Shown: piece by piece, positions 9,854 to 52,410 of the stretch
How the letters are laid out: every line of letters starts with the position of its first letter
How positions within the stretch are numbered: the first letter of the stretch is position 1
Translations under genes and position numbers: made by a program
The notes under the pieces: model-generated
The model's input: the letters and a program-made list of their open reading frames with translations, nothing else
What the model was told of the DNA's origin: nothing
Database searches by the model: none
Assembly (NCBI GenBank): GCA_051313645.2
Contig: JBNRSN020000005.1
Span: 221,712,001 to 221,776,000, forward strand
From: Centroscyllium fabricii
Lineage: Eukaryota
DNA length: 64,000 bases
Direction of reading: 5' to 3'

Positions 9854-12800
9854 TGACGTATCGTCAAGGTCTTCAATTAAAAGAGTCGACGCGTAGTTAC
9901 CGAAACTAAAGGCTTTTAATTACTAATGAACGGAGCTACTCTCCAGACGAACTACTGTATAGGAATGGAGGAGCCTCGGTCAGACCACACCTATATCGGG
10001 GCCTCACCTGGGGGAGGAGTCGGGGGTGTGGCTGACCTGGCTCCCAACAGAGTCACAGTAAATAGGGCTGTGCCTAACATCTGCACAGCCCATCATTAGC
10101 CATAGTGGAACAGTGGTATAATGGACATAGAATGGTTACCACATTCACCCATTCTTAAAAACTTTGAGTCCGGGGGGTGGTGAATGGGTCGAACAGTTCA
10201 TAATAAGTCTGTCCGGCGGTCGTGTCTGCCTGGAGGACCGCCGGCGCTCCGGTGTTGGCGGCGGTGCCTCCTGGGTCAAATGGCCCGCATCTGCCGGCGC
10301 TGTGACTTCAGGTGGCGGTGGGCTCGGCTGGTCCCCGCCGTCAGGGTCGTAGTCGGGGAAACTCGGGGGCCATCGTGCGTCTGGTGGTTGGTCGGCCTGC
10401 TGGCCAGCAGGAGGCGCTGTGGTGGTGTTTCCGGCAGGGGCCAGGTCCCTGATGGACACGGTGTCCTCACGCCTGTCCGGGAACTGCACGAAGGCGTAGT
10501 GCGGGTTTGCGTGTAGGAGCTGTACCTTGTCCACCAGGGGGTCCGTCTTGTGGCTCCGGACGTGCCTTTTAAGCAAAACCGGCCCCGGAGTCGTAAGCCA
10601 TGGGGGAAGAGCTGTCCCCGAAGTCGACCTCCTGTTAAAAGAGAAAATCAGATCGTGCGGGGTGGCGTTAGTAGCAGTACATAACAGAGAGCGAATAGAG
10701 TGCAGCGCGTCTGGGAGGACTGCCTGCCAATGGGACACTGGAAGGCCTCTGGACTTGAGGGCCAGGGTGACCGCCTTCCAGATAATCCCATTCTCCCTTT
10801 CTACCTGGCCGTTCCCCCGGGGGTTATAACTGGTCGTTCTGCTCGTGGCAACCCCTCTATGGAGCAGAAACTGGCGCAGTTCATCGCTCATGAACGATGA
10901 CCCCCGGTCGCTATGGATGTAGCTGGGGAGACCGAAAATGGCGAACAGCGCGGTGAAGTGTTTGATCACCGTTGCGCTCGTCATGTCTGGGCAGGGGAAG
11001 GCGAAGGGGAAGCATGAGAACTCATCAACTACCGTGAGGAAGTATGAGTTGCGGTCGGTGGAGGGGAGGGGGCCTTTGAAGTCCACGCTGAGACGTTCAA
11101 AGGGGCGGGTGGCCTTGATGAGGTGCGCCGTGTCTGGCCGGAAAAAGTGGGGTTTGCACTCAGCGCAGACAGGGCACTCTCGGGTCATAGCCTTGATCTC
11201 CGTGATGGAGTAGGGGAGGCTACGGGATTTGACGAAATGGGCGAGTCTGGTGACACCCGGGTGGCAAAGGCGGTCGTGGAGGTCCTTCAGCCGGTCTAGC
11301 TGGGCACTGGCGCACGTTCCCCTGGACAGAGCGTCAGGGGGTTCGTTGAGTTTGCCTGGTCGGTAAAGAATGTCATACTCGTAAGTCGAGAGTTCGATCC
11401 GCCACCGCAGGATCTTATCATTCTTGATTTTACCCCGTTGTTTATTATTAAACATAAACGCTACCGACCGTTGGTCGGTGAGCAGGGTAAAACGCTTACC
11501 GGCCAGGTAATGACGCCAGTAGCGCACGGCCTCCACGATGGCCTGGGCCTCCTTTTCCACTACTGAGTGGCGAGTTTCGGGTCCCTGTAGGGTGCGGGAG
11601 AAAAACGCAACGGGCCTGCCTGCCTGATTCAGGGTGGCAGCAAGGGCGAAGTCCGAAGCGTCACTCTCCACCTGGAAAGGGATGGATTCATCAACAGCGA
11701 GCATGGTCGCCTTGATAATATCTTCCTTTATCCTTGCGAATGCCGTTTGGGCTTCCACAGAGAGGGGGAAGACAGCAGCCTTGAGGAGTAGTCTAGCCTT
11801 ATCTGCGAACTGTGGGACCCATTGTGCATAATAGGAGAAAAATCCTAGACATCTCCTCAAGGCTTTGGGGTTGTGAGGTAGGGGCAGTTCTTGCAAGGGT
11901 CGCATACGCTGTGGGTCGGGGCCGAGGAGCCCGTTCTCCACCACGTATCCGAGGATGGCGAGCCGGGCTGTATTAAAGACACATTTGTCTTTGTTATACG
12001 TGAGGTCCAGCTTAGCCGCCGTGGCGAGAAATTTGGCCAGATTGGCATCGTGGTCCTGCTGGTCGTGGCCGCAGATGGTCACGTTGTCCAGGTAAGGGAA
12101 GGTGGCCTGCAAGTCGTTTTGGTCAACCATACGGTCCATCTCCCGTTGGAACACTGACACTCCGTTGGTCACGCCAAAGGGGACCCGGAGGAAGTGGTAG
12201 AGCCGACCATTCGCCTCGAAGGCGGTGTAGGGGCGGTCGGCTTTCCGAATCGGGAGCTGATGATACGCCGATTTAAGGTCGATCGTAGAGAACACCTTGT
12301 ACTGGGCGATCTGATTGACCATTTCCGAGATGCGGGGGAGGGGGTAGGCGTCGAGCCCGGTGTAGCGGTTGATAGTCTGGCTGTAATCGATAACCAGCCG
12401 CTGTTTTTCGCCAGACTTCACCACTACAACTTGGGCGCGCCAGGGGCTGGTGCTGGCTTCAATTATCCCCTCCTTCAGCATCCGCCCGACCTCCGACCTG
12501 ATAAACGTGCGATCCCCCTCACTGTACCGCCGACTCTTAGTGGCAATGGGTTTGCACTTCGGATCGAAGTTGGCGAACAGCGAGCGGGGGTCGATTTTCA
12601 GGGTGGAGAGGCCGCAGGCCGGGCTCCGCTTTGGGAAGAGATTGTCCCGGCTACTGACGGTGAGGGGGGGTAAGGTCCCGCCGAACTCCATTGTCACGCT
12701 CCTGAAGTGGCACTGGAAATCCAAACCTAGTAAGGCTGGGGCACACAACTGTTGGAGGGTATACAATTTAAAATTACGGTACACGCGCCCCTTGACGGTG

Positions 12801-14710
12801 AGCGTGACGGAGCAGTAGCCGGTGACGTCCGCGGTGTGGGACTGTGAAGCTAGGGAGACTTGGTAGTTGGTGGGCAGGACCTGCAGTCCGCAGCGCCGCA
12901 CTGTATCAGGGTGAACGAAACTCTCAGTGCTGCCTGTGTCGAAAAGGCAGTCGACAGTATGATTATTAATGGTAATCGGCATTATTGAGTTAGACAGGGT
13001 ATGGGGCCTGCCCTGGCTAACTCTGATTCTGGCTGCCGCAGCCCCTGCTGATCGGGGCTGTGCACAAGATGGCGGCACCCCTGGCTCGCACATGGTGGAG
13101 CCCTGGGTACAAGATGGCGTCGCCCCTGGCCCGCAGCTGGTGGGGCCCCGTATACAAGATGGCGTCGCCCCTGGCTCGCACATGGAGGGGCCCTGGGTAC
13201 AAGATGGCGTCGCCCCTGGCTCGCACATGGAGGGGCCCTGGATACAAGATGGCGTTGCCCCTGGCTCGCACGTGGAGGGGCTCTGGTTGCAAAATGGCGT
13301 TTCTGAGGGGACGCACGCGGTGGGGCCCTGTGAACGCGCTGGCGGCGCCCGTGATTCGCACGCAGCGAACCGCGGTGATCGGGTTGGCAGTGCCCGTGAT
13401 TCGCACGCAGCGGGCCGCGGTGGTCGGTTTGGCGGTGCCCGTGATTCGCACGCAGCCGGCCGCGTTGGGGGGTCGCGCTTGGCCGGCCTTTGCTGCATCA
13501 GGGTGGGGGATGGGGGCGCTTGTTGTTTACCCCCGTACCGTCGCTGGATCGCGCTGCTATTGCAGCTTACCTGGTGTCTGTCGGTGCTCTCACAGGCTGC
13601 ACTGTTGTACCTTGAGTTGGGCGCTGCTGGAGCTGATCTGCAGGCTTTAGCGTAGTGTCCCTTCTTTGCACATTTCTCACAGGTCGCTGTCCTGGCTGGG
13701 CATTTAGCTCTAGGGTGCAGTCCCTGGCTGCAGAAGTAACAGCGCTTGTTTTTAGTGTCTTTAGTGGCCGTCGCGGCCATCGTGGGGGCCTCGGCCCGTG
13801 GTGCCCAGGCCTGGGCCTGTTGTGGCGCGGCCCATATGTTGTAGGCTTGCGGGTTAGTGCCGCTGTACGCCTGTAACTTGCTACGGGCCCCCTCTACCGA
13901 TTTGGCTATCGTAGTCGCCTCCTCGAGGGATAAATTGTCTCTCTCTAGTAGCCGCTGACGGGCTTCCACACACCTCAGTCCTGTAACATAAGCGTCCCGA
14001 ACGAGGAGTTCTTCCTCCTCTGCAACAGTTGTGCCTTTGCAGCCACAGGCCCGTACCAGGGCCAGGAGCGCTTGCTCAAACTCCTCATTTGACTCACCCG
14101 GTAGCTGAGATCTGGTCGCCAGCACATGTCGGGCGTAGACCGAATGGACCGGGCGCTCGTAACATTTCTTCAAAATTTGTATAGTCCCTTCGTAGGTTGA
14201 GGCGTTCCTGACGAGGCTGAATACCCTGCTGGAGATCCTCGATCGTAGGACATGCAGCATGTCCTTGTCTGATGTAGCCTTGGCGGCGTCCATGTAGGCC
14301 TCCAGAAGGCCGAACCAGTGTTCGTAGGTAGCGGGAGCAGCAGGGTCCTGGGGACTGATGTCCAGCTTCTCAGGTTTAACTGTGCTGCTCTCCATTTTAA
14401 AATAATTTAGTAATTAAAATTGACGTATCGTCAAGGTCTTCAATTAAAAGAGTCGACGCGTAGTTACCGAAACTAAAGGCTTTTAATTACTAAAGAACGG
14501 AGCTACTCTCCAGACGAACTACTGTACAGGAATGGAGGAGCCTCGGTCAGACCACACCTATATCGGGGCCTCACCTGGGGGAGGAGTCGGGGGTGTGGCT
14601 GACCTGGCTCCCAACAGAGTCACAGTAAATAGGGCTGTGCCTAACATCTGCACAGCCCATCATTAGCCATAGTGGAACAGTGGTATAACGGACATAGAAT
14701 GGTTACCACA
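9854..14710 (-). mobile_element. full-length Gypsy LTR retrotransposon (element 1), intact and young
   Basis: 290-bp LTRs (9854-10143, 14421-14710) with 3 differences by eye; TG..CA termini; perfect 5-bp TSD GTACC; purine-rich PPT AAGAATGGGTGAA. Confidence 0.97.
10145..14395 (-). CDS. Gag-Pol polyprotein (1416 aa): Gag with two Zn knuckles, protease, RT, RNase H, integrase
   Basis: CYFCSQGLHPRAKC and CEKCAKKGHYAKAC; LFDTGS; DLKSAYHQ..VPFG..YLDN; ESDASD..EKEAQA..TDQ..DALSR; HHCC plus DFKGP/SDRG/ERENG. Single uninterrupted ORF. Confidence 0.97.
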   Translation of the reverse strand: MESSTVKPEKLDISPQDPAAPATYEHWFGLLEAYMDAAKATSDKDMLHVLRSRISSRVFSLVRNASTYEGTIQILKKCYERPVHSVYARHVLATRSQLPGESNEEFEQALLALVRACGCKGTTVAEEEELLVRDAYVTGLRCVEARQRLLERDNLSLEEATTIAKSVEGARSKLQAYSGTNPQAYNIWAAPQQAQAWAPRAEAPTMAATATKDTKNKRCYFCSQGLHPRAKCPARTATCEKCAKKGHYAKACRSAPAAPNSRYNSAACESTDRHQVSCNSSAIQRRYGGKQQAPPSPTLMQQRPAKRDPPTRPAACESRAPPNRPPRPAACESRALPTRSPRFAACESRAPPARSQGPTACVPSETPFCNQSPSTCEPGATPSCIQGPSMCEPGATPSCTQGPSMCEPGATPSCIRGPTSCGPGATPSCTQGSTMCEPGVPPSCAQPRSAGAAAARIRVSQGRPHTLSNSIMPITINNHTVDCLFDTGSTESFVHPDTVRRCGLQVLPTNYQVSLASQSHTADVTGYCSVTLTVKGRVYRNFKLYTLQQLCAPALLGLDFQCHFRSVTMEFGGTLPPLTVSSRDNLFPKRSPACGLSTLKIDPRSLFANFDPKCKPIATKSRRYSEGDRTFIRSEVGRMLKEGIIEASTSPWRAQVVVVKSGEKQRLVIDYSQTINRYTGLDAYPLPRISEMVNQIAQYKVFSTIDLKSAYHQLPIRKADRPYTAFEANGRLYHFLRVPFGVTNGVSVFQREMDRMVDQNDLQATFPYLDNVTICGHDQQDHDANLAKFLATAAKLDLTYNKDKCVFNTARLAILGYVVENGLLGPDPQRMRPLQELPLPHNPKALRRCLGFFSYYAQWVPQFADKARLLLKAAVFPLSVEAQTAFARIKEDIIKATMLAVDESIPFQVESDASDFALAATLNQAGRPVAFFSRTLQGPETRHSVVEKEAQAIVEAVRYWRHYLAGKRFTLLTDQRSVAFMFNNKQRGKIKNDKILRWRIELSTYEYDILYRPGKLNEPPDALSRGTCASAQLDRLKDLHDRLCHPGVTRLAHFVKSRSLPYSITEIKAMTRECPVCAECKPHFFRPDTAHLIKATRPFERLSVDFKGPLPSTDRNSYFLTVVDEFSCFPFAFPCPDMTSATVIKHFTALFAIFGLPSYIHSDRGSSFMSDELRQFLLHRGVATSRTTSYNPRGNGQVERENGIIWKAVTLALKSRGLPVSHWQAVLPDALHSIRSLLCTATNATPHDLIFSFNRRSTSGTALPPWLTTPGPVLLKRHVRSHKTDPLVDKVQLLHANPHYAFVQFPDRREDTVSIRDLAPAGNTTTAPPAGQQADQPPDARWPPSFPDYDPDGGDQPSPPPPEVTAPADAGHLTQEAPPPTPERRRSSRQTRPPDRLIMNCSTHSPPPGLKVFKNG

Positions 14711-16420: not shown

Positions 16421-19400
16421 CTTTGGAGCTATACTCCGAACGAACATCCAGAACCAAATGAGGGAGCCCGGCCAGTCCTCACCTATAAAGGGCCTCACCT
16501 GGGGGAGGAGTTAGAGGTGTGGCTGACCTGGCTCCACGACAGTGTTGCAAACATGATAACAGAACAGCCAATATTGGCGACAATATTGCAGTGGTAAAAC
16601 TATGTATAATAACGGTTACCACATTCACCCCTTCTTGAAAATTTAAGTCCGGCGGGGTGAATGTACAGAGCAGTTCATTATAAGTTTGTCCGGCGGTCGC
16701 GTCTGTCTGGAGGACCGCCGGAGCTCTGGCAGAAGTTCATTATGTTCCGTCCCGCTCGGGTCCGGTGGTGGTGATGGTGGCGCTGGTGCCGAAACTTCGG
16801 ATGCTGGTGGCCTCGGTTGATCTGAGCCATCGGAATGGTGGTCGTGGGCCGCCCACGGCTGGGGCTCTGGATACCTCGGAGGCCACTGTAGATGCAGGGG
16901 GTGTTCAAAATACCGTGGCTGGGCGGGCTGCTGCCCGACCAGTGGCTCTGCTGTGGTGCTCCCGGCGGGGGCTAGGTCCCTGATGGAGACGGTGTCCTCG
17001 CGCCCGTCCGGGAACTGTACGTAGGCGTATTGGGGATTCGCATGCAGGAGCTGCACCTTGTCCACCAGGGGGTCGGTCTTGTGGCCATGGATGTGCTTTC
17101 TAAGGAAGACCGGCCCCGGTGTCGTGAGCCATGGAGGAAGAGCTGTCCCCGAAGTCGACTTCCTGGGAAAGGAAAACATCAAGTCATGAGGGGTGGCGTT
17201 AGTGGCCGTACATAAAAGAGAGCGTCTCTAATGCAGCGCGTCTGGGAGGACTGCCTGCCAATGGGCCACTGGAAGGCCTCTAGACTTCAGAGCCAGGGTG
17301 ACCGCCTTTCAGATGATCCCATTCTCCCTTTCTACCTGGCAGTTTCCCCGGGGGTTATAACTGGTCGTTCTGCTCGAGGCAACCCCTTTCTGGAGCAGAA
17401 ACTGACGCAGTTCGTCGCTCATGAACGACGACCCCCGGTCGCTATGGATGTAGCTGGGGAGACCGAAAATGGCGAACAGTGTGGTGAAGTGTTTTATCAC
17501 CGTTGCGCTCGTCATATCTGGGCAGGGGAAGGCGAAGGGGAAGCAGGAGAACTCATCTACGACCGTGAGGAAGTGTGAGTTGCGGTCGGTGGTGGGGAGG
17601 GGGCCTTTGAAGTCCACGCTTAGACGTTCAAAGGTGCGGGTGGCCTTAATGAGGTGCGCCGTGTCTGGCCGGAAAAATTGGGGTTTGCACTCGGCGCAGA
17701 CAGGGTACTCTCGGGTCATAGCCTTGATCTCCGTGATGGAGTAGGGGAGGCTACGGGACTTAACGAAATGGGCGAGTCTGGTGACACCCGGGTGACAGAG
17801 GCGATTGTGGAGATCCTTCAGCCGGTCTAGCTGGGCACTGGCGCACGTTCCCCTGGACAGTGCGTCCGGGGGTTCATTGAGTTTACCTGGTCGGTAAAGA
17901 ATGTCATACTCGTAAGTCGAGAGCTCGATCCGCCACCGCAGGATCTTATCATTCTTGATCTTACCCTTCTGTTTATTATTAAACATAAACGCCACCGACC
18001 GTTGGTCGGTGAGAAGGGTAAAACGCTTACCGGCCAGGTAATGACGCCAGTAGCGCACGGCCTCCACGATGGCCTGGGCCTCCTTTTCCACTGCAGAGTG
18101 GCGAATTTCGGGTCCCTGTAAGGTGCGGGAGAAAAACGCTAGGGGCCTGCCTGCCTGATTCAGGGTGGCGGCAAGGGCAAAGTCCGAAGCGTCACTCTCC
18201 ACCTGGAAAGGGATGGATTCATCAACGTCGTGCATGGTCGCCTTGATAATATCTTCCTTTATCCGGGCGAATGCCATTTGGGCTTCTACCGAGAGGGGGA
18301 AGACGGCAGCCTTGAGGAGTGGTCTAGCCTTGTCCGCAAACTGTGGGACACATTGTGCGTAATAGGAGAAAAATCCTATGCATCTCCTCAAGGCTTTGGG
18401 GTTGTGAGGTAGGGGCAGTTCTTGTAGGGGGCGCATATGCTGTGGGTCGGGGCCGAGGACCCCGTTCTCCACCACGTATCCGAGGATGGCGAGCCGGTCT
18501 GTATTAAAGACGCATTTGTCCTTGTTATACGTAAGGTCCAGCTTTTCCGCCGTGTCAAGGAATTTGGCCAGATTGGCATCGTGGTCCTGCTGGTCATGGC
18601 CGCAGATGGTCACGTTGTCCAGGTAATGGAAGGTGGCCCGCAACCCGTTCTGGTCAACCATGCGGTCCATCTCCCGTTGGAATACCGACACTCTGTTGGT
18701 CACGCCGAAGGGGACCCGGAGGAAGTGGTAGAGCCGACCGTTCGCCTCGAAGGCGGTGTACGGGCGGGCGGCTTTCCGGATCGGGAGTTGGTGATACACC
18801 GACTTAAGGTCGATCGTGGAGAACACCTTATATTGGGCGATCTGGTTGACCATGTCCGAGATGCGGGGGAGGGGGTAGGCGTCGAGCCCGGTGTAGCGGT
18901 TAATAGTCTGGCTGTAGTCAATAACCAGCCGCTGTTTCTCGCCAGTCTTCACCACTACTACCTGGGCCCGCCAGGGGCTGGTGCTGGCTTCAATTATCCC
19001 CTCCTTCAGCATACGCCCGACCTCCGACCTGATAAACGTGCGATCCCCCACACTGTACCGCCGACTCTTAGTAGCAATAGGCTTGCAGTTGGGGTCGAGG
19101 TTGGCGAACAGTGAGGGGGGGGTCGATTTTCAGGGTGGAGAGGCCGCAGGCCGGGCTCCGCTTTGGGAAGGGACTGTCCCGGCTACTGACGGTGAGGGGG
19201 GGCAAGGTCCCGCCGAACTCCATTGTCACGCTCTTGAGGTGGCACTGGAAATCCAGACCTAGTAAGGCTGGGGCACACAACTGCTGGGGGGTGTACAATT
19301 TAAAATTACGGTACACGCACCCCTTGACTGTGAGCGTGACGGAGCAGTAGCCGGTGACGTCCACGGTGTGGGACTTTGAAGCAAGGGAGACTTGGTAGTT

Positions 19401-21176
19401 CGTGGGCAGGATCTACAGTCCGCAGCGCTGCACTGTATCGGGGTGCACAAAGCTCTCCGTGCTTCCAGTGTCAAATAGGCAATCGATAATATGGCCGGTT
19501 ATTTTAATAGGCATTATCGAATTCGACAGAGTGTGTGGCCTGTCCTGGTCCACTCTGGGTATGGCTGAGGCCGACGTGTACTTTTGTGTGTGGGGGCCCC
19601 CTGCTGGTTGGGGCTGTACACAAAATGGCAGCGCCCCTGGCTCGCACATGGTGGGGCCTTGGAGACAAAATGGCGGCGCCCCTGGCTCGCATATGGTGGG
19701 GCCCTGGGGACAAAATGGCGGCGCCAAGGGGTCGCACATGGTGGGCCGCTGGAGTCGAGATGGCGGCGCCCGTGGTTCGCATGCGGCTGACCGCTGTGAG
19801 CGCGCTGGCGGCGCCCGTGGTTCGCACGCAGCGGGCCGCGGTGACTGGGTTGGTGGTGCCCGTGGTTCGCACGCAGCGAGCCGCGGTGGTCGGGTTGGCG
19901 ATGCCCGTGATTCGCACGCAGCCGGTCGCGTTGGGTCTGCTGCTGGCGTTGGGGGGTCGCGCTTGGCCGGCCTTTGCTGCAACGGGGTGGGAGATGGGGG
20001 CGCTTTCCTACTACCCCCGGACCGTCGCTGGATCGCGCTGCTATTGCAGCTTACCTGAGGTCTGTCGGAGCTTTCGCAGGCTGCGCTGTTGTACCTGGAG
20101 TTGGGCGCTGCTGGTGCTGATCTGCAAGCCTTTGCATAATGTCCCTTTTTGGCGCACCTCTCGCAGATCGCGGTCCTTGCTGGGCATCTCGCTCGCGGGT
20201 GCAGTCCCTGGCCGCAGAAATAGCAGCGTTTGTCCTTTGTGGCTGTCGCAGCCATCGTGGGGGTCTCGACCCGTTGTGGTGCTGCCCAGGCCTGGGCCCG
20301 TTGTGGCGCGGCCCACATGTTGTAGGCCTGTGGGTTTGTGCCGCTGTACGCCTGCAATTTATTGCGTGCTCCTTCAACGGAGTTAGCTATGGCGATCGCC
20401 TCTTCCAGAGACAAAGAGTCTTTTTCGAGCAGCCGCTGGTGGGCTTCCACGCACCTCAGGCCAGTTACATACGCATCTCGGACGAGGAGGTTCGCCTCCT
20501 CATCTGCTGTCCGGGCTTGGCAGCCACAGACCCGTACCAGGGCCTGGAGCGCTTGCTAAAACTGTTCATTGGTCTCACCCGGTAGTTGTGGTCTGGTCGC
20601 GAGCACATGTCTGGCGTAGACCGAATGGACCGGGCGCTCGTAGCATTTCCTCAGCTTTTCCACTGCCCCTGGGTAGGTTTTGGCGTCTCGGATGAGGGAG
20701 AATACTCGGCTGGAGATCCTAGACCGGAGAACCTGTAACTTGTTCCCGTCAGTTGTAGCCTTGGCGGTGTCCATGTAGGCCTCCAGGAGACCGAACCAGT
20801 GTTCGAATGTGGTGGCGGCGGCTGGGTCCTGTGGACTGATATCCAGCTTTTCTGGCTTTACTGCACCGCTCTCCTATTCAAAATTTTGAAGTTATTAAAA
20901 TTGACGTATCGTCAATATCTCTTAATAAAAGACTAGACGAGTAGTTACCGTAACTATAGGCTTTTAATAACTTACTTTGGAGCTACCCTCCGAATGAACA
21001 TCAGAACAGAATGAGGGAGCCTCGGTCAGTCCTCACCTATAAAGGCCTCACCTGGGGGAGGAGTTAGAAGTGTGGCTGACCTGGCTCCACGACAGTGTTA
21101 CAGGCTGTGTATCACACACAGCCAATTGTTGGCAACAATAATGCAGTGGTAAATATACATAATATGGGTTACCACA
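16421..21176 (-). mobile_element. Gypsy element 2 (same lineage as element 1), frameshifted; 3' LTR truncated (16421-16623), 5' LTR 20902-21176
   Basis: ORF pieces 20556-20774, 19413-20450, 19068-19364, 17309-19051 and 16643-17182 are collinear with and highly similar to the element-1 polyprotein. Confidence 0.95.
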
Positions 21177-24100
21177 TTCACCTCGTAACTTCTCGTCTCC
21201 GAGGTCATTGATACGGTATCAATTTTATTCGCTAAATTTAATCATGGAGACCATGCTCAAACCAGCGACGTTCGAACTGGATCCCCAAACACCAGGCGCC
21301 TCCAATACGTTTACGCACTGGTTCAGCTGTTTCGATGCGTACCTCGCAGCCAACGCGGCGGTCGTCCAGACGGAACAGGACAAGCTGCGCCTTCTCAACG
21401 CCCGGGTGGGCCCCCAAGTTTACTCTATAATCGCGGATGCTACGACCTACATAGAGGCGGTCCGAACCCTGAAAGCCGAGTATAACCGGACACCGAACCT
21501 CGTCCACGCCAGACACCTCCTGGCCACCAGAAAGCAGCAGCCCGGGGAATCGAGCATGGAGTTCCTACCAGCGCTGAGAGTCCTCTGCCGGGCCTGCAAC
21601 TGTAAGTCACAGACAGCCTTGGTGCACTCGGAAAGTCTCATCAGGGACGCTTATGTGACTGGCCTCAGGTCCGATTACATCCGCCAGAGACTATTGGAGC
21701 AGAATGGCATGGACCTGACGGCGACAATTGACCTTGGGAACGCGCTGGACTTGGCGTCCCATAACATGTCCTCTTACTCGGGCAACCATGCGGGCACATC
21801 GCAGACACCGCCATCTTGGACACAGCCGGCCGCGCCACGACCGGCGGAAGAGATGACTGTGGCTATGACCTCGAAAGGGCCTAAATGTTACTTCTGCGGC
21901 CAGGCCCAGCATCCCAGGCGAAATTGCCCGGCGAGAGACGCGGCCTGCTCTAAGTGCGGTAAGAAAGGACACTTTGCTAAGGTCTGCAGAGCAGCGGCAA
22001 TACCGCCCTCCAAACCGGGCAGCGCCGCGTGTGGGCCGTGGGGGAAGCCATCTTGGATACAGCCATCTTCATCACAGCCCGCCTTTGGGAGCAGACGCCA
22101 TCTTGGACACAGCCATCTCCATCACAGCCCGCCGTGTGGCGGCAGCCATCTTGGGACCAGGCCCCAGACCTCTCAACCGACTCGACCGACCCGATACTGG
22201 CCTCCATCACACTCGACCAGAACAAGAGCCAGCCACTGAGCAAATCCATGATGACGGTGCAGGTGAACGGGCGGAGTACAGATTCCCTTTTCGACAGCGG
22301 GAGCACGGCGAGCTTCATCCACCCAGATACGGTAAAGCGCTTCTCCCTTACAGTCATGCCGGCTAACCAGAAAATCTCGATGGCATCTAAGTCCGAATCT
22401 GCGGATGTCTGCGGTCGCTGCGTAGTGACCCTGACAGTGCAGGGCGTACACTTACAGAATTTTAAAGTATTTGTGCTGCCGCACCTTTGCGCTCCCTTAC
22501 TGCTGGGCTTCGACTTCCAGTGCCACCTCCAGAGCATGACTATGGCGTACAGTGGGCCCCTTCCCCCGCTCACGGTCAGCAACCAGCGCTCCCCACAGTA
22601 CCCACAGCGGGCTACCTGCGGCCTCTCGACCCTTAAGGTCGACCCCCCCTCGCTCTTTGCCAACCTCACCCCGGACTGCAAGCCCGTCGCCACCAAAAGT
22701 AGGTGCTACATTACCGGGGACAGAGACTTCATCAAGTCTGAGGTGAAGCGGCCTCTGAAGGAGGGGTCATCGAGGCCAGTAATAGCCCCTGGAGGGCGCA
22801 GGTAGTGGTCGTGAAGACCGGAGCCAAACACCGGATGGTTGTGGACTACAGTCAGACCATTAACCGGTTTACGCAGCTAGATGTGTATCCCCTCCCCCGC
22901 ATAGCGGATATGGTGAACCAGATTGCCCAGTTTCGGGTCTTCTCGACCATCGATCTGAAGTCTGCGTACCACCAGCTCCCCATCCGCTCAGAGGACCGCC
23001 ACTATACTGCCTTCGAGGCAGACGGCCGCCTCTACCACTTCCTCAGGGTTCCATTTGGTGTCACCAACGGGGTCTCGGTCTTCCAAAGAGAGATGGACCG
23101 AATGGTTGATCAGTACGGACTGCGGGCCACCTTTCCGAATCTTAATAATGTGACCATCTGCGGCCACGACCAGCAGGACCATGACGCCAACCTCCAGAAA
23201 TTTCTCCACACCGCCAAAAAGTTAAACCTGACTTATAACACGGAAAAATGTGTGTTCAGGACAACCCGCCTCGCCATCCTCGGCAGTGTTGTGGAGAATG
23301 GGGTCATCGGTCCCGACCCGGACCGCATGCGCCCCCTCCTGGAGCTCCCCCTCCCCCACTCCCTCAAGGCCCTGAAACGGTGCCTGGGGTTCTTTTCTTA
23401 TTATGCCCAGTGGGTCCCCAACTATGCGGACAAAGCCCGCCAACTACTTAAATCAACCACCTTTCCCCTGTCGGCAGAGGCCCGCACGGCCTTCTGCGGC
23501 ATAAAAAAAGACATTGCAAAGGCCGCGATGCACGCTGTGGATGAGGCCGTCCCGTTCCAAGTAGAGAGTGATGCGTCCGACTTTGCCCTGGCCGCCACCC
23601 TTAACCAGGCGGGCAGACCCGTGGCCTTTTTATCGCGCACCCTCCAGGGCACCGAGACCCGACACTCTTCCGTTGAGAAGGAGGCCCAGGCCATTGTTGA
23701 AGCAGTGCGACACTGGAAGCACTACCTGGCCGGCAAACGATTTACCCTGCTGACTGACCAATGCTCAGTCGCGTTCATGTTCAACAACAAAGAGCGGGGC
23801 AAAATCAAGAACGACAAGATATTGAGGTGGAGAATTGAGCTCTCTGCTTTCAATTACGATATCTTGTACTGGCCCGGGAAACTCAATGAGCCCCCAGATG
23901 CCCTGTCCCGCGGTACATGTGCCAGCGCACAAGTGGACCGTCTCCAGACCTCTACCACCCGGGGGTCACCAGGTTGGTCCATTTCGTTAAGTCCCGCAAC
24001 CTCCCCTACTGCATCGAGGAGGTCAAGACCATGACCAGGAACTGCCAGGTCTGTGCGGAGTGCAAGCCGCACTTCTTTCGGCCAGAGCGGGCGCACCTGA

Positions 24101-25027: not shown

Positions 25028-27135
25028 TCTTCAGGACTGCATGCACTACACTGGTGACCTCGATACTTGGAACGACTTCCAAGTGAACATAATGAAGCAG
25101 TTGCTGCAGGACTGAGGGCCAAGCTGCCTCAGTACACTCCCAATCAACATGCCAGCAGGGAGCCAAACAGCGCGACTTCACAGACTGGGCCAGAACTACG
25201 GCCAAATACCAACCTTGCCAGAGTTCTGGGAACTACGTCCAGCGGCCTGGTTCCTCAGCACGGAGAACACCTACTGCATCCATGGCGTACAGGGGGACGA
25301 TCGATACAGCCTGCTCTTCGCGGCCCTTTCACAGACCACGGTCGACCGAATGTGGTCATCGATACAGCACGAACCAACCGCTGGCGGGTACGAATTCCTT
25401 AAGGCCGCGCTGCTAAAGAAATTCACCCCCTCCCAGTTTGAGCGCAACTGCCAGCTCATTAACCTCCCCGAACTCGGGGACGCAGACCCATCGGACCTCT
25501 GGGCCCAAATGGAAGCGCTCAATTGCGACCCGGCCACCATTAAGCGCGCCTTGTTCCTCCTCAAACTGCCTCCCTCCGTCAGACCGGCTCTGACGATCCT
25601 CGACCACTACACTAAACAGCAACTGGCTGAGGAGGCCGACAAGCTGATGAGGGCCGAGCGCTCCCGAGCCGCCACGTGCGAGCCCACTGCCGCGGCACCG
25701 GAGCACTACCATGCGCACCCCAGGTCCGGCCCCAAGTCTGATCCTAGGCCCCGGCTGGTGTTACTACCACACCAGGTTTGAAACTAAAGCGCAGCGCTGC
25801 GTCCAGCCCTGCACCTTCAAACCCCAAACCAGCCCAAGCCCCACCATGTCCGTAGGCCGCTCTGGAGCACTGCTCTTCGTCACGGACAGCGGCTCAGGCC
25901 TCCGCTCCCTCTGCGACACAGGCGCGCAGCACAGCATCGTGCCAGCCTCCCCCGCAGAAACCAAGCAAGGCACCCAAGGCCCACCACTCGAAGCCGCAAA
26001 TGGCTCCGAAATAGTTACGTTCGGCACCCACAAGCTCACCATCAAGCTAGCAGGCCACACGTACCAGTGGGACTTCATCACAGCCCAAGTCAAACTACCC
26101 CTCCTCGGGGCCGATTTTCTTTGCGCCCACGGCCTACTGGTCGACGTGACCCGGCCCCGCCTGGTCGACATCCATAACATGTCGACCATCCCATGCTCCA
26201 CAGGGCCGGCACACCAGGCCCACGCAGCATCCCACTGCCGAGCCCGGAACTCCGACACGTACGGCACGCTCCTCGCGGAGTTCCCAGCCCTCACCAACCC
26301 CACCTTCACAGCCCGCACAGCCAAGCATGGGGTGGAGCATCACATCACCACCACAGGCCCCCCAGTCCACGCCCACGCACGCAGGCTGGACGCGGCCAAG
26401 CTGGAGATCGCGCGTACCGAGTTCCACATCATGGAGCAACTCGGCATAATCCGCCGCTCCAGCAGCCCCTGGGCCTCCCCCCTCCACATCGCCCCCAAAC
26501 CCGGCGGTGGTTGGCGCCCCTGCGGAGACTACCGCCGCCTCAACAACACCACCACCCCAGACAGGTACCCCGTACCCCACATCCAAGACTTCTCAGCTCA
26601 AACCGGCACATGTAATGGCGGGCGAGACAACAGTCCCCGCGCAGCCACCAAAACGCGGACGCCCTACCGCACCAAAGCCCGCCCACACTCCCACGCAGAA
26701 CAAGGAGCAGCGCACGACACGTGCCGGCCGCATCATCCGGCCACCTCAACGCCTCGCCTGAGACTCATCTTTTATGCTCCATTTTTTTATTTTTACTTTA
26801 TTCTCCCTTCTTTTATTTTTAACTTTATTCTCCCTCACAGATTCTGGGGGGGAGCTGTGTGGCGACACGCCCACCAAGACCAACGAATCCGCCTCTTGAG
26901 TACTGCGGGACACGGCCCTGCCCGCCGGGCGGCGTGATGACGTCACCGCGACTTCCGGCGTGATGACGTCACCGGGACTTCCGGCAGTGACATCACCAAC
27001 CGCGGGCCCTTTAAATATGCCTGTTCCAGGAGGCTCAGTCTCTTCGCTACCTGGCCCCTGCAGAGTAAACTATTAAATGAGTGTTATCCGATTTCACTGT
27101 GTCTAGCGTGGTTCTTCAGGACTGCATGCACTACA
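25028..27135 (+). mobile_element. CsRn1-like Gypsy element 4, internally deleted; 23-bp 5' LTR remnant, 3' LTR 26858-27135
   Basis: PBS TGGTGACCTCGA (tRNA-Trp-like) at 25052; Gag LPEFW..PAAWF; WCYYH..C..PC knuckle; CDTGA protease. [12 protein letters not shown] is fused directly to the integrase C-terminal LKPAH segment at ~26597. G-rich PPT. Confidence 0.9.
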
Positions 27136-27320
27136 GGTCAGTGTAGCGGAGGCTTTACTCTGTATCTGGCTGCCCTCTAACTGTTCTGTGAGCAGTAAAT
27201 GCGAACAGTGAGTTCTCAGTATCACTGTCCCTCACCACAATGAGCACAAACATTTTTAAATCGAAAATAAGAGGCTGGAAGGCTGTGGAATGTTTCTCTA
27301 ACCTTCTTTATCCATGACAT

Positions 27321-29800: not shown

Positions 29801-31678
29801 CTGCAGCCCTGCTCCACCCCCGCAATTGTGATGGAGCTGGAATTCCGGCCCCTGACTGTGAAGGACATTGATCCCATTCCCACATCCCAGGGATGAGTTC
29901 ATTTTAATATTCAGGGCCAGTAGCCTGTGCCTGTAGTGGGACTTTAGATGCACCCTGTGGTGTATGTAACATTGCGCACTACTTTGTACCATGGCAGGAC
30001 ACTGCAGTGCTGCGGTCCGCCACTACTGTATATAAGTCTAAGCGTGGAGCGATACGGGTCAGTTCCAGCCTGTACCATGTTGAGTAAACATCACCTTTAG
30101 TTCGTACCTGTACAACTGAGTCTGTCGTTATTAATCCTCAATAGCGTGGGCTCAACAATGGCGACGAGGTCGGTCGAATTCATAGCTGTGTAATCGGATA
30201 CGTCGGGAAATGAAAAGATTCGTTTTTAACTGAAGTCGACCATCGACCACTAAGGCACACCCTGCACTCCAGAAAAGGGAGCGGCAGCGATTCACCAGCA
30301 GAGGGAACTCAGTCAGCCTACACTCCAACACTGGGAGTGGTGAGGCAGTTTCGCTCCAGCCAGCAGAAATCGACAGCAGCAGCCAGCAGAAATCGGCAGC
30401 AGGAGCCAGCAGAAATCGACAGCAGCAGCCAGCAGAAATCGGCAGCAGGAGCCATCAGAATCGGGTGCCCAGCTCAGCTGCGGCAGGAAGGCCGCGAAGC
30501 AGGACCCAGCCAGCAGAAGCATTGGACATCGGCTCGAGGTGGGGCCAGAACAATGGCAAACAAAGTCGCACAGCGGGGTCGAATGGGAGGATCGAGGGCG
30601 ACGAAGCCAGTCACCAGAAGTGGTTGTCGAGGATCAAGGTTGGTCCTCCGACCAGGAGAACGCACCAGCTTGCAGGTAGAGCGCAATCCTTACTGTAACC
30701 ACGGGGGAAATCAGAGGCCCAGCGGGGGAGAGACGTGCAGAGGTGGGGAGACGCCATCTTTGAGCGGGAAAAGCGCAGGAAGAGATGCGCACAGGTGGTA
30801 AGACACCATCTTTGAGCGGGAAAAGCGCAGGAAGAGACGTGCAGAGGCGGGAAGACGCCGGAAGAGACGCACAAAGGCGAGACTAAGCACTGGAAGAGAC
30901 GCGGAAAGGCGGGAAAAACGTCATCTTGGCGTGGGAAGAAACCGGAAAAGAAGTGGGAAAGCGGGACCAACGCCATCTTTTGGCGGGAAAGTGGCGGAAG
31001 AAATGCGGGGAGGCGGGAGAAGACGCCATCTTGACCGCAATATCATAAAATAAACATGGCCAGATCGAACGGGTTTGGGGTTTTCCAGCCAGATAAAGAA
31101 GACTGGGAGGCGTATTTAGAACGCTTCGATATTTATTGTAACGTACAAGCAGTCACGAAAGAGAACAAACTAAATACATTCTTAAATGCCCTGGGACCTG
31201 AAACATATGGGTTGCTCAGAACACTAGTGTCTCCAGATAGACCAGCGACTAAAAGTTTACAACAGATAAAGGATATTTTAAAAGATAACCTGAACCCAAA
31301 ACCCCCTTTTATAGTGGAACAATTCAAATATTTTAAAAGGGACCAGCAAAAGGGGGTGTCACAGGCTGAGTACATTACTGCACTCAGACGGTTGTCGAAG
31401 CACTGTGCCTTTGGGGAGGAACTGTCCAATCACCTAAGAGACAGATTTGTATGTGGTATAAGGGATGATACCACACAAAAAAAATGATTGACCTAAAAGA
31501 CGCTCACTTTAGAGCAGGCCCTGGAGACGGCCGCGGCCCTCGAGGCAGCTGCAGTAGGGGCAGCCGCGATTAGAAACAGTGGTGGTCCCCTAGAGACCCA
31601 CGAAATCTCTACACGCACAAAAAAGTGCTACCGCTGTGGCAAGTCCACACACGACCAGAGTCGGTGCTGAGCTAAGGA

Positions 31679-31933
31679 CAAAAATGTGCGGGTTAGATTG
31701 ATTGGCCATGATAAATTGACCCTTAGTGTTAGGGGGATTGAATATGTGGGGTTATGGGGATAGGGTGGGATATGTGTCGATGCAGGCTCGATAGGGATCG
31801 AGGGATATGGGGAGAGGGCAGGGGCGGGGTGCTGGGTTTAGATGATCAGCCATGATCTCATTGAATGGCAGAGCAGGCTCAAAGGGCCGAATGGCCTACT
31901 CCTGCTCCTAGTTTCTATGTTTCTATGTTTCTA
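31679..31933 (+). mobile_element. 5'-truncated HE1-like SINE inserted between the two Gag Zn knuckles
   Basis: Matches the 3' half of the SINE at 32474; (TTCTATGT)n tail; Gag resumes as DCRQCGKIGH. Confidence 0.85.
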
Positions 31934-32473
31934 AAGACTGTAGACAATGTGGCAAGATAGGCCACATAGGTCAGGGCTTGTAGGTCAGGGAAACAAGCGT
32001 GGCCAACACAGAGACAAACACAGAGACGGCCCAAACCCAGAAAGGTAAATAAAATGGCCGAAGAGGATTCGGGAAGTGAATCGGAAGACCAGGGCACAGA
32101 CCAGTGGGGGCTGGGAAGCTTAAAGGTCCACAATATGGGTGACCACACTGACCGGAGTGTAATATGGATTCCCCTAAAAGTAGCAGGGGCAGAGATATCT
32201 ATGGAGCTAGACACAGGATCTGCTCTATCAGTGATTAATGAAAAATTCTATAGGAAAACATTCAGTGGGACACCCCTAGAACAGTCCCCGGTAATATTAA
32301 AGACCTACACAGGACAGAAATTTAAGTCATTGGGGAGGTTGCCCGTCACAGTCAGATATCAAGGTAAACAGACAAAGGGTCTGTACCCCTACGTTTTAAA
32401 AGATGGTGGAGCACCACTCTTGGGGAGGGAGTGGATGCAACGGATCAACCTCGACTGGGGCACAATACATACC

Positions 32474-32881
32474 GGACGGCACGGTGGCATAGTGGTTAGC
32501 ACTGTTGCCTCACAGCACTAGAGACCCGGGTTCAAATCCGGCCTCGGGCACTATCTGTGTGGAGTTTGCACATTCTCCCCGTGTCTGCGTGGGTTTCCTC
32601 CGAGTGGTCCGGTTTCCTCCCACAGTCCAAAAATGTGCGGGTTAGGTTGATTGGCCATGATAAATTGACCCTTAGTGTTAGCAGGATTGAATATGTGGGG
32701 TTACAGGGATAGGGTGGGATATGTGTCGGTGCAGGCTCGATCGGGATCGAGGGATATGGGGACAAGCAGGGACAGGGTACTGGGTTTGGATGATCAGCCA
32801 TGATCTCACTGAATGGCAGAGCAGGTTCAAAGGGCCGAATGGCCTACTCCTGCTCCTGTCTTCTATGTTTCTATGTTTCTA
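32474..32881 (+). mobile_element. HE1-like tRNA-derived V-SINE
   Basis: Pol III A box TGGCATAGTGG and B box GGTTCAAATCC; V-domain TGTGTGGAGTTTGCACATTCTCCCCGTGTCTGCGTGGGTTTCC; CR1-like 3' tail. Confidence 0.9.
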
Positions 32882-35800
32882 TAATGTCAAGGCCTCACAC
32901 AAGACTGATGAGGACCTATCGGAAGACTAGACAGAATACTGGAAAAGAACCCAGAGGTTTTCCAACCCGGCCTGGGGAAGTTAAAAGGCATTAACGCAAG
33001 GGTAATGATCACGCATGGGGCAACCCCAATTTTCGCCAAGGCACGTCCAGTACCCTATGCTATTAGACCAGCAGTGGAGGCAGAACTCAAAAATTTGGAA
33101 GCAGAAGGAGTTCTGTCCAATGTGGAATGGAGCGAATGGGCCACACCCATCGTTCCAGTCTTAAAAAAAACACAAAACAAGGATGGGGAGAAGACAAAGG
33201 TGCGCATTTGCGGGGACTTTAAAATGACCATTAACCCGGTGTTAAAAATTGTACAGTATCCATTGCCCAGAATTGAGGATATCTTTGCTTCCTTAGCAGG
33301 GGGGAAACGGTTCAGCAAGATAGACCTCTCACAAGCGTATCTACAGATGGAGGTGGAGCAGGATTCCAGGAAGCTGCTGACCATCAATACGCACAAAGGG
33401 CTGTACCAATATAACCGAATGGCTTTTGGCATTGCATCAGCGCCAGCCATATGGCAGAGGACCATGGACCAGGTACTGCAGGGTATTCCAGGGACACAAT
33501 GCTACCTGGATGACATCTTAGTGACGGGCAGAACGGATGGGGAACATTTGTCCAACTTGGAAACAGTCCTGGAAGGACTCAAAGAGTGTGGGCTCAGGGC
33601 CAATAAGCAAAAATGTGAGTTTTTTAAGGATCACATCTTATTGTATCCATGAAATTGATAGCGAAGGGTTACACAAATCGCCTGACAAGATAGCGGCGGT
33701 AGTAAACACCCCAAGGCCAGAAAATGTCATGCAGTTCAGGTCATTTCTGGGGCTGATTAACTATTATCACAAGTTTTTACTCAACCTATCAATGGTTTTG
33801 TACCCGCTAAATACACTGCTACAGGCAGGGACACCCTGGAAGTGGGAGAAAGCGTGTGAGACAGCTTTCTTAAAAAGCAAACAAATGATCACCTCTAAGG
33901 AGGTCTTAATGCATTTTGACCCCAGCCTGCCCATAAAGTTAGCGTATGATGCTTCCCCTTATGGCATTGGCACCGTGGTGTTCCACAAATGCCCAGATGG
34001 GTCCGAAAGACCAATAGCAGTTGCCTCTAAGTCCCTCACCATGGCAGAAAAAAACTACGCTCAAATAGACCGTGAAGCACTCAGCCTGGTATGGGGGGTG
34101 AAAAAGTTTCACCATTACTTACTCGGCCAACAGTTTACACTGATAACCAACCATTGGTCTCTATTTTCCACTCAGAAAAAGGGGTACCCCAGATGACTGC
34201 ACAAAGGCTACAAAGATGGGCACTGTTCTTGGGTGCGCACAAATATACCATTGAACATAAAGGCACTAAGAGGCATGGTAATGCGGACAGATTGTCACGA
34301 ATGCCCCTACAAGAAACAAGGGGGGTCTGCAACAAGATCCCCTGGAATTGTACCATTCGTCAATAGTGGAGCAGTTACCGGTCACTAGCAAACAGATAGA
34401 GAGGGAAACGAGAAATGACCCCTGTTTGTCAAAAATGTTTAATGTCGTAGTACGAGGATGGTCCAGAGAGGACCTCAACATATGGCCTGATTACGCCAAC
34501 AGAAAGAACCAGTTGTCGGTCTGCCGGGGCACGTTAATGTGCGGAGGTCGGGTGGTAATCCCAGAAAAATTACGGAAACAAATTCTGATAGACCTACACG
34601 AGGGACATCTGGGCAGGGTTAAAATGAAATCCTTAGCCAGGGCGTACGTATGGTGGCCCAGGATTGACAAAGATATTGAGACACTGGCTAGTGAATGCAC
34701 CAGGTGCAAAATGGTCCAAAACGCACCGCCCCAGGTGCCCTTACACCCATGGGAGTGGCCATCGTCTCCATGGCAAAGAATTCATATCGATTTTGCCGGG
34801 CCTTTTATGGATGCTATGTTCCCCATCGTCGTTGACGCCCATTCCAAGTGGCCTGAGGTGATAAGAATGTCCTCCACCACAGCTGAGAGGACAATCTCAG
34901 TCCTCAGAACCATTTTTGCCAGAAATGGTATACCGGAACAGATCTGTTCCGACAACGGACCTCAGTTCATCTCTGAGGAGTTTAGTGCATTTCTAAAAAG
35001 AAATGGGATCCAACATTACAAGTCAGCACCATACCACCCAGCCACAAATGGACTGGCAGAAAGGTTTGTGCAGACCTTCAAAAAGGCCATAAAAGCCATG
35101 GGGGGAGGAAAGTTGGAATTACAACATAAAATAGACAACTTCCTCTTTGCATATAGAAATGTGGCACACACAACCACTCACCAGTCTCCGGCAGTGTTGT
35201 TCTTTAATAGGAGATTGCGGAATCGTCTGGACCTGTTGCAACCCAACATTCGTCGAGACGTAGAAAACCAAATGTACCGAAAGGCTTCGGACCGTGCAAC
35301 CAGAAACTTTGATGTAGGTCAAGATGTGCTAGTAAGAGACTATAGGCATGATAAGTGGCAGGCTGGAACAATCAGCCATCGGCAAGGGCCGTTATCATAC
35401 ACAGTAGAAACACCTGAGGGGCAAATCAGAAGACACACTGACCAAATTGTAAGGGACACTGTGGCCAGTGCTGATTCACCCAAATCAAAGACAACAACAA
35501 AACGGACAATCTCCCATGACAACAATTCAGACGAAGAAGCGCCTGATGAAGGCTCTCCGGAGGTCGAAACAGACGACGAGTCAACAAAGACTACCTCATC
35601 ATCGGCCATCACAAAACGATACCCAACGAGAGACCGCCGACCTCCACAGAAACTGAATCTGTAACTGTAAATATGACATCTGTATATATATCGTTGTTAG
35701 TCCTCCCCCTTTACTGACTGTTGTACCGTAAAGGCTAATTAAGTGGGGAGGAATGTGGTGTATGTAACATTGTGTAATACAAGGTTATCATTGCGCACTA

Positions 35801-39635: not shown

Positions 39636-40289
39636 TAGTACCGGCAGAACCGTGACTTGGTAACATAGCCCAGTGTAAGAGATTATAAGCATGCCATGAA
39701 AGTTTTCAAGTTAGCTGACCTTGTGTTATCTGGCAAGGTTGGTTCTGCCATGGTCCGCAGACAGCCTGATAAGCATTGCACACAGCTGACATGATCAGCT
39801 CCAATGAGTGAGCGTTATGCTGTGATAGTACAACAGGAACAGTATGCAGCTGATAATGCAGTCTGAGCACTGGACTGCCATAAAAACACTGCACCCCCTG
39901 ACATAATGTACTGCTGCATCGGGAGTGCCAGGCTGCATTGTGGGGTGCCAGTCCAATGAAGGCCAGCTGGCTGCCCATTGTGAGTTGGATGCTGACTTGG
40001 TGAGGGCAGCATACATTATGGGGCAGCTTGGGAGCCTGGTGAGCCCAGCTCACAGGCTGAGTACAAGCTTTCAGCCCCTCTGCTCTCGTTGCCTCAGGTG
40101 TGTTTTAGTTCTCCATCCGCTATAGCTGGTTTTCTGGGAGAGAGTGTCCCATGCACTTCAGCCCGCCATTGCGTTATTGGCCCCTATGAGTAGCATCTAC
40201 TGGTGATAGTGCAGGAAGAACTCCCTGGAATGGATAATTCCAAGACCTGCCCATCAGTGGCTGTGCACACACTGGGCCAATTGGCTGAC

Positions 40290-51291: not shown

Positions 51292-51470
51292 AACTTTAAA
51301 CAGACTGAGATGGGCCCCGGCCACAATAAACAACACCTGGGAAATCAGTCTGGGAATGGGGCTGAAGGCGACACTGGGAACTAAACTGGCGCAAGTGCAA
51401 CAAGTGAGCCGACCAGTCCCGGACAATCTCCCTTCAATTTAAACTCCTTTGAGTGGTGCTCCTGGAAGCG

Positions 51471-51893: not shown

Positions 51894-51921
51894 TTCATTC
51901 CCGGTTCTGTCCCTCCCTTAC

Positions 51922-52295: not shown

Positions 52296-52410
52296 CGTAC
52301 TGCTAATCTCACAGCTGGCACTGGAACCCGCAGCTCTGTCCGTGCACTGACTGCAAAACCAACTCAATCTCCGGGCTCCGACTGGGGAGGCTGTGTAGAG
52401 CACTGAAAGA

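What the first reader, a model, noticed from the sequence alone, without database searches (positions are those of the whole stretch)
20889..21236. Conserved multi-hairpin (cloverleaf-like) fold in U5 with covariation across three diverged elements
Seen: inside the closing stem there are three small hairpins. Element 2 transcript: UAGUUA-CGG-UAACUA, UCUUUU-AUU-AAGAGA, UUGACG-AUA-CGUCAA. Element 1: UAGUU-UCGGU-AACUA, UCUUU-UAAUU-GAAGA, UUGACG-AUA-CGUCAA. The last hairpin straddles the LTR end. In divergent element 3 it reads UUGAUA-CGG-UAUCAA (21208-21222), which has two compensatory pair swaps, the same stem length and a 3-nt loop. Inference: a selected RNA structure, possibly a tRNA mimic or a guide for primer cleavage or RT loading.
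Basis: partly seen in the sequence, partly recalled or inferred. Interest (0 to 1): 0.7.

Follow-up and report, generated by a model that had tools for sequence, protein, structure and literature searches.

The report
Retrotransposon priming on its poly(A) signal
A very abundant jumping-gene family has no tRNA primer site; that site instead pairs perfectly with the family's own poly(A)-signal-like stretch, and dead-end copies in the genome suggest it likely starts DNA copying with the first ~52 bases of its own RNA, whereas the small hairpins first noticed are real but only partly conserved.

Summary
The hairpins are in the sequence as described, but the cloverleaf is not the conserved unit. 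Three inner hairpins occur in 17 of 30 unselected TCA-ended copies and 0 of 20 ACA-ended copies. Intact element-3-type copies have two. RNAalifold keeps only the closing stem, and nothing is tRNA-like.

The invariant feature is a 12-14 bp Watson-Crick helix between the primer-binding position and the AAUAAA/AUUAAA segment of R. It has 21 matched variants, lies in about 198,000 junctions and is kept in 4 of 4 distant relatives.

About 1,400 aberrant copies carry a longer inverted copy of R. Of 137 mapped, 24 stop at the predicted start site, against 2.4 expected.

Best reading: Tf1-like self-priming in a non-chromovirus Gypsy clade. The primer would be about 52 nt and end in the poly(A) signal, and the same helix would hide that signal at the 5' LTR. 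The terminal hairpin resembles a U5-IR stem but is optional. No RNA data were available. The scan noted self-priming animal Gypsy elements before, on other DNA.

The parts
20902..21176 (-). Element 2 5' LTR (TG...CA); element 2 spans 16421-21176 and is decayed, with a truncated 3' LTR
21036..21043 (-). TATA-like box of element 2
   Evidence: first T of TATA lies 28-31 nt before the Inr A in 235 of 236 reference LTRs bar two outliers at 26 and 32 (234 of 236 in range)
20962..21012 (-). Inferred self-primer of element 2: from the Inr A (+1, 21012) to the end of the AUUAAAA run, 51 nt
   Evidence: inferred from the pile-up of extended inverted copies at the Inr A; not shown by RNA data
20979..20991 (-). 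Short GGAG/CTCC hairpin just 5' of the pairing arm (E1/E2-type subfamilies); a possible stop for plus-strand copying (speculative)
   Evidence: P 0.99 in element 2 and 0.88 in element 1
20962..20973 (-). 5' arm of the closing stem; contains the poly(A)-signal hexamer
20947..20961 (-).
   Evidence: helix of 4 bp or more from this G in 33 of 51 clusters against 16.0 expected; P 0.26 in element 2
20942..20956 (-).
20918..20932 (-).
20901..20915 (-). Terminal U5 hairpin (HP3), stacked against the primer-binding site; U5-IR-like
20889..20900 (-). Primer-binding position of element 2: no TGG; 12-nt complement of the R arm, 1 nt after the LTR end
21177..21221 (+). Remnant of the element 3 5' LTR (upstream part, including the pairing arm, is missing in this copy); inner hairpin 21180-21205
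21208..21222 (+). Element 3 terminal hairpin with two swapped pairs
21223..21236 (+). Primer-binding position of element 3; its complement lies in R of intact subfamily copies
   Evidence: perfect in 14 of 19 other copies, one mismatch in 4, arm deleted in 1
14421..14710 (-). Element 1 5' LTR: Inr A 14533, pairing arm 14481-14494, hairpins 14461-14475, 14437-14451, 14420-14434
14406..14419 (-). Primer-binding position of element 1: 14-nt complement of its R arm
10145..14395 (-). Element 1 single ORF, gag-PR-RT-RH-IN, no chromodomain, RT motif YLDN
9854..10143 (-). Element 1 3' LTR (99% identical to the 5' LTR); not followed by the pairing arm; 5-bp target duplication

Best explanation
The region is the 5' LTR-leader junction of an abundant Ty3/Gypsy family whose primer-binding position pairs over 12-14 bp with the element's own AAUAAA/AUUAAA segment, and this helix likely serves for self-primed reverse transcription with a predicted ~52-nt primer cut from the 5' end of the RNA. 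Steps: (1) shown: no TGG site; strict complementarity that changes in step across subfamilies and distant relatives. (2) inferred from TATA-Inr spacing and from fossil products: the RNA starts at the Inr A, 51-54 nt upstream of the end of the arm. (3) inferred by analogy with Tf1: the RNA is cut at or just before the A|G step of AAAA-GCC, probably by the element's RNase H, and the 3' OH copies U5 and the short rest of R. (4) supported by fossils: plus-strand strong-stop DNA copies the attached primer, which rewrites the primer-binding site each cycle and explains the lock-step change. It normally keeps 12-14 nt but sometimes copies the whole primer before jumping onto the minus strand. (5) inferred: at the 5' LTR the same helix hides the poly(A) signal, which is free at the 3' LTR because no leader follows. 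The inner hairpins are accessory. They shorten the 50-65 nt loop, the helix starting at GCC may mark the cut site, and the terminal hairpin may act like a U5-IR stem, but different subfamilies use different sets.
For: Closing stem: at stem positions 6-12, which the search pattern did not fix, 1045 of 1078 cells are Watson-Crick, 4 G-U and 29 mismatched. 126 of 154 junctions are perfect, with 21 different matched 7-mers, all giving AATAAA or ATTAAA. 6 covarying pairs; 0 of 500 shuffles reach the score. The arm predicted from element 3's leader was found in 14 of 19 intact copies. 133,389 + 65,073 junctions, controls 13 and 28. 4 of 4 metagenome relatives with the junction (47-63% RT identity) keep the stem and the RCC step; the 31% outgroup has a TGG site. 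Extended inverted copies: 766 and 643, controls 3 and 4. Of 140 fetched, 137 were mapped: 42 end inside R, 24 at the Inr A or one base beyond (at least 18 distinct junctions; 2.4 expected, P about 1e-10), and 13 over the next ~135 nt of U3. Of 27 copies ending within 1 nt of the start site, none has a PPT before its LTR and 19 continue into sense-strand gag or pol. Tf1 cDNA also copies its primer (PMC11042837, passages).
Against: No RNA evidence for the start site, the cut or the poly(A) site. 58 of 137 extended copies run through U3. About 39 of them end within 4 nt of the LTR start and about 12 go on into the PPT or internal region, so inversions also arise by DNA fold-back or by annealing to another template; the start-site pile-up could come from annealing in trans to an intact RNA 5' end rather than from an attached primer. 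What normally stops copying after 12-14 nt is unexplained. The exact cut site is uncertain by 1-2 nt. No clear cap-templated C follows the start-site junctions (5 C, 4 A, 2 T, 7 G among 18, hand count). The GCC helix is only 2-3 bp in 18 of 51 clusters. Plus-strand bias of the inner folds is weak (27 of 42).
Confidence: 0.75

Rival explanations
1. Self-priming, but the primer comes from the 3' copy of R, or the cut 5' piece is only 12-14 nt. The start-site pile-up then comes from plus-strand DNA annealing in trans to an intact RNA 5' end.
For: About 12 of 137 inverted copies continue into the PPT or internal sequence. Normal copies keep only 12-14 nt of complement.
Against: The 5' R arm is only 50-65 nt from the site and folds with P above 0.9. 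The stop rate inside R (about 1.3% per nt) is far above that in U3, and there is a sharp step at the start site. Several copies resume at the leader or gag start right after the extra primer copy.
Confidence: 0.12
2. The helix only hides the poly(A) signal at the 5' LTR, and priming uses some other unknown primer.
For: The hexamer is always AATAAA or ATTAAA and the pairing exists only at the 5' LTR. Hairpin occlusion of a 5' poly(A) signal is known from HIV-1 (recalled, not checked).
Against: Occlusion would tolerate G-U pairs and shifts of register, yet G-U pairs are almost absent (4 of 1078) and the arm starts exactly 1 nt after the LTR end. No host RNA could track 21 variants. Occlusion alone does not explain inverted copies that stop at the start site.
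Confidence: 0.06
3. One reading: a conserved cloverleaf acts as a tRNA mimic that loads RT.
For: Three hairpins exceed shuffles in E1/E2-type clusters (P 0.05 or less in each of 13 clusters).
Against: Absent from E3-type, CATCA-type and ACA-type subfamilies, and not homologous in distant relatives. No consensus pairs. No tRNA or Rfam match. HP1 variants inside the E1/E2 group are breaks, not swaps.
Confidence: 0.04
4. The terminal hairpin is a DNA-level feature: part of the integrase attachment site, or a palindrome kept by template-switch correction. It has no RNA role. This concerns HP3 only.
For: It ends at the LTR end, its outer pairs include the conserved CA, the element 3 swaps are CpG transitions, and 0 of 20 ACA-ended copies have it.
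Against: Several different stems occur. A U5-IR-like stem is required in Tf1 (title of Lin and Levin 1998, seen only in reference lists).
Confidence: 0.3

Closest known systems
Tf1/Tf2 of Schizosaccharomyces pombe and the Tf1/sushi group of chromoviruses (self-primed reverse transcription)
   Same: No tRNA site; primer-binding site complementary to the element's own R; primer copied into the cDNA end (PMC11042837, passages); a U5 stem next to the site.
   Different: [quoted passage not shown] Here the pairing arm is at about +40 to +53, overlaps the poly(A) signal and lies 50-65 nt from the site. There is no chromodomain, and the RT forms a separate clade. Sushi-type elements in the same genome show the classical layout: a 9-11 nt complement near a TATA-proximal Inr, 124-218 nt before the LTR end, in 4 of 6 loci.
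Plant Tcn1 and TAR (Houba, Osr-1) lineages, predicted self-priming
   Same: Complement of 10 nt or more in the 5' LTR, starting 0-5 bp after the LTR end (PMC6317226, passages).
   Different: Plant elements: a chromovirus and a Copia lineage. The passages read do not describe overlap with the poly(A) signal or a long primer.
Retroviral U5-IR stem-loop and HIV-1 poly(A) hairpin
   Same: A stem in U5 next to the primer site; a poly(A) signal hidden in a helix near the 5' end.
   Different: Those serve tRNA-primed viruses. Here one helix would do both jobs and the inner stems are interchangeable. Recalled knowledge; only a title seen.
Cigr-1 clade of Ty3/Gypsy (label taken from earlier AI note e1-9160346)
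   Same: Compact single-ORF metazoan Gypsy; a close homolog in the tunicate Styela clava (60% identity). The clade is reported from Ciona, molluscs and annelids (PMC6238403, PMC8556966, passages).
   Different: No Cigr-1 sequence was available, so membership was not tested. The passages read say nothing on priming.

Membership tests
Ty3/Gypsy (Metaviridae) | LTRs with TG...CA ends and pol order PR-RT-RH-IN | tested here: met
   best PDB match Ty3 RT, E 1e-47
Tf1/sushi group | Primer-binding site complementary to the element's own LTR, no tRNA site | tested here: met
Tf1/sushi group | Self-primer is the first ~11 nt of the RNA | tested here: not met
   the arm lies 40-53 nt after the predicted start site; start site inferred, not measured
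Tf1/sushi group | Chromodomain at the integrase C-terminus | tested here: not met
   0 of 8 proteins by Pfam at E 0.1; none in the precomputed domains of 120 homologs
Tf1/sushi group | RT-RH groups with chromoviruses | tested here: not met
   26-row family clade (SH-aLRT 99) apart from 9 sushi-type rows of this genome (100), identity 27-31%; quick tree, careful search unfinished, no named Tf1 or sushi reference
Tf1/sushi group | Pretzel: two further duplexes flanking the primer duplex | tested here: inconclusive
   GCC pairs with GGY just before the LTR end in some subfamilies and locally in others; no duplex with sequence 3' of the site
Tf1/sushi group | RNase H cleavage releases the primer | not testable with these tools
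   needs biochemistry
tRNA-like structure | Cloverleaf with tRNA arm geometry, D and T loop motifs, conserved family-wide | tested here: not met
Cigr-1 clade | RT groups with Ciona Cigr-1 | not tested
   no reference sequence obtained; label comes from an earlier AI note

The most novel reading that the evidence does not exclude
A second, independently evolved architecture of self-primed reverse transcription in a metazoan-wide, non-chromovirus Gypsy clade. A capped ~52-nt primer ends in the poly(A) signal itself, so one helix both blocks premature polyadenylation and yields the primer. The cut site is marked by a helix junction (RCC paired with GGY) that different subfamilies build from different partners.
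Probability: 0.5. Interest if true: 0.72.

Novelty: new variant of a known kind. Interest (0 to 1): 0.55.

Why it matters
Self-priming has been shown by experiment only for Tf1, according to the papers read. This clade has about 198,000 junctions in one genome and relatives from sea anemones to sharks. It appears to have reached self-priming with a different geometry that ties primer formation to control of polyadenylation. The genome holds over a thousand dead-end products that map the primer's 5' end without an experiment, a method usable for any element lacking a tRNA site. It also poses a sharp question: what stops plus-strand copying after 12-14 nt of a 52-nt unmodified primer? The cloverleaf itself matters less, as it is one of several interchangeable fillings of the loop.

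Tried and rejected
DNA search with element 1's junction returned nothing because its words are too common. No RNA holder listed. Two contig runs laid on the region gave no start or end information. A search for poly(A)-tailed retrocopies gave 1 match, too few to map the poly(A) site. A cap-templated C after start-site junctions was not evident. An alternative long-range helix (UCGUC with GACGA) competes with HP3 (P 0.36 in element 2) but shows little covariation. In one search the zero probabilities for element 1 HP1, HP2 and the alternative helix, and for the element 3 GCC helix, are script artefacts (wrong occurrence matched) and were not used. The script stopped on a save error after printing its results; 3 of 140 loci had no reference and were dropped. 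Junction sets were limited to copies with a start codon after the leader; searches used clusters of natural copies enriched on purpose for rare end types, so they are not frequency estimates. Ten literature searches found no paper on self-priming at the poly(A) signal or in this clade. The primary Tf1 papers were not held. Butler 2001, Simmen and Bird 2000 and Repbase entries could not be seen and may already describe it. Papers were read as passages only; no supplements were opened, and those of PMC6317226 and PMC6238403 may bear on the claim.
Full report
Setting. The finding lies at the 5' LTR-leader junctions of two Ty3/Gypsy elements that meet head to head. Element 2 is on the minus strand (16421-21176) and element 3 on the plus strand (from 21177). 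Element 1 (9854-14710, minus) is a complete relative with 99% identical LTRs, a 5-bp target duplication and one ORF gag-PR-RT-RH-IN. The genome has 7.2 Gb. The closest named homologs are from rays and sharks (75-82%), followed by a nematode, a sea anemone, a tunicate and a damselfly (58-64%).

Observation. All quoted hairpins are present at the stated places, and the junctions of elements 1 and 2 fold better than shuffles (z -2.9, -2.7). But elements 1 and 2 are 85% identical, and in this window element 3 has lost all but 45 nt of its LTR. I therefore sampled the family. A pattern that leaves the inner region free finds 133,389 junctions ending in TCA (control 13) and 65,073 ending in ACA or GCA (control 28). 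In the first 30 and first 20 of these, the closing stem has at least 11 of 12 pairs in all 50. Three inner hairpins occur in 17 of 30 and 0 of 20, and a hairpin at the LTR end in 29 of 30 and 0 of 20. On 47 representative natural copies the closing stem is 97% paired with 6 covarying pairs, HP3 89% with 2, HP1 73% and HP2 71% with many gaps. RNAalifold keeps the closing stem alone. No tRNA or Rfam match. The cloverleaf is thus one subfamily group's filling of a loop, not the conserved unit.

The conserved unit. The leader begins 1 nt after the LTR end, has no TGG, and is the reverse complement of the R segment that ends in the A run before an invariant GCC. From element 3's leader I predicted the missing arm and found it in 14 of 19 other copies; 4 have one mismatch and 1 lacks it. 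At the seven stem positions not fixed by the pattern, 1045 of 1078 cells are Watson-Crick and only 4 are G-U, with 21 different matched 7-mers. All 21 give AATAAA or ATTAAA, while neighbouring positions vary freely, so the arm is also under selection as a poly(A) signal (inference). Four of four metagenome relatives that include the junction (47-63% RT identity) keep the stem and the RCC step, with unrelated inner folds; a 31% outgroup has a TGG site. A helix of 4 bp or more starting at the G of GCC is found in 33 of 51 clusters against 16.0 expected. Its partner is local in E1/E2 types and near the LTR end in others, with matched changes at the fourth pair.

Fossil products. One locus had a leader that went on as an inverted copy of R up to an initiator motif. 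Patterns for such copies found 766 and 643 (controls 3 and 4). I fetched 140 and mapped 137 against natural LTRs. Of these, 42 end inside R, 17 at the Inr A, 7 one base further (about what a chance match gives), 13 in the next ~135 nt, and 58 run through U3. The rate inside R predicts 2.4 stops at those two positions; at least 18 distinct junctions are seen (P about 1e-10). The Inr A lies 28-31 nt after the TATA start in 234 of 236 LTRs. None of 27 copies ending within 1 nt of it is a 3' LTR, and 19 continue into sense-strand gag or pol at many different sites. This is what plus-strand strong-stop DNA would leave if it copied a whole 51-54 nt primer and then jumped onto the minus strand. Tf1 cDNA likewise keeps a copy of its primer (PMC11042837, passages). 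Against this reading, the 58 long inversions show that fold-back or trans-annealing also occurs, so annealing to an intact RNA end remains possible. That alternative still needs an RNA 5' end at the Inr and a primer complementary to the site.

Mechanism. Shown: the complementarity, its lock-step change, its overlap with the hexamer, and the pile-up at the Inr. Inferred: the start site, a cut at or 1-2 nt before A|GCC (by RNase H, by analogy with Tf1, PMC7175516 passage), rewriting of the site from the primer each cycle, and hiding of the poly(A) signal at the 5' LTR only. Speculative: the GCC helix marks the cut, HP3 acts like a U5-IR stem, and the hairpin 5' of the arm helps stop copying. No RNA run was available.

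Comparison. It works like Tf1/sushi but is not a member. There is no chromodomain (0 of 8), the RT-RH clade is separate from sushi-type elements of the same genome (quick tree), and those elements show the classical short primer at the start site in 4 of 6 loci (description in 10.1101/2022.12.06.519325, passages). An earlier AI note files the family under Cigr-1, which I could not test. Ten searches found no paper on this layout, but key older papers and Repbase were out of reach. The scan recorded self-priming animal Gypsy elements in other genomes and the fossil-product argument for a BEL/Pao family; these notes are unchecked and were seen after my own tests.

Verdict. Observation partly confirmed. 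tRNA mimicry not supported. Priming without tRNA strongly supported through the closing stem. New variant of a known kind; interest 0.55.

Noticed in passing
window 10145-14395 (-), RT domain; homologs P0002-P0121: The RT motif is YxDN instead of YxDD in element 1, in 12 of 12 genomic hits and in 96 of 121 proteins; 21 have DD and 4 gave no motif. No paper found for YLDN. An earlier AI note covers it.
   Followed up: partly
window 25050-27150 (+) and 40288-44740 (-): A second Gypsy family with a TGG-type primer site; one copy replaces the 3' part of element 3. The CsRN1-like label is recalled.
   Followed up: no
window 21176/21177: Element 2 abuts element 3 head to head inside element 3's 5' LTR, and the rest of that LTR is not found beyond element 2. 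Flanks of many loci are also family members, so nesting is frequent.
   Followed up: no
L141-L280: About 39 of 137 extended copies are complete inverted LTR duplications ending at the LTR start and followed by other DNA: likely fold-back plus-strand products that were integrated.
   Followed up: partly
L361, L363, L364, L366, L368, L371: Sushi-type elements (chromodomain motif found in 4 of these 6) with the classical self-priming layout coexist in this genome, which gives two self-priming designs side by side.
   Followed up: partly
window 29967-35976 (+): A further Gypsy element with 191-nt LTRs (96% identical) and a distant RT, interrupted by LINE-like pieces.
   Followed up: no
window 37300-39900 and 51400-54300: Long tandem arrays with units of 18-19, 27 and 30 nt; a 45-nt tandem repeat also lies inside gag of elements 1 and 2.
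   Followed up: no
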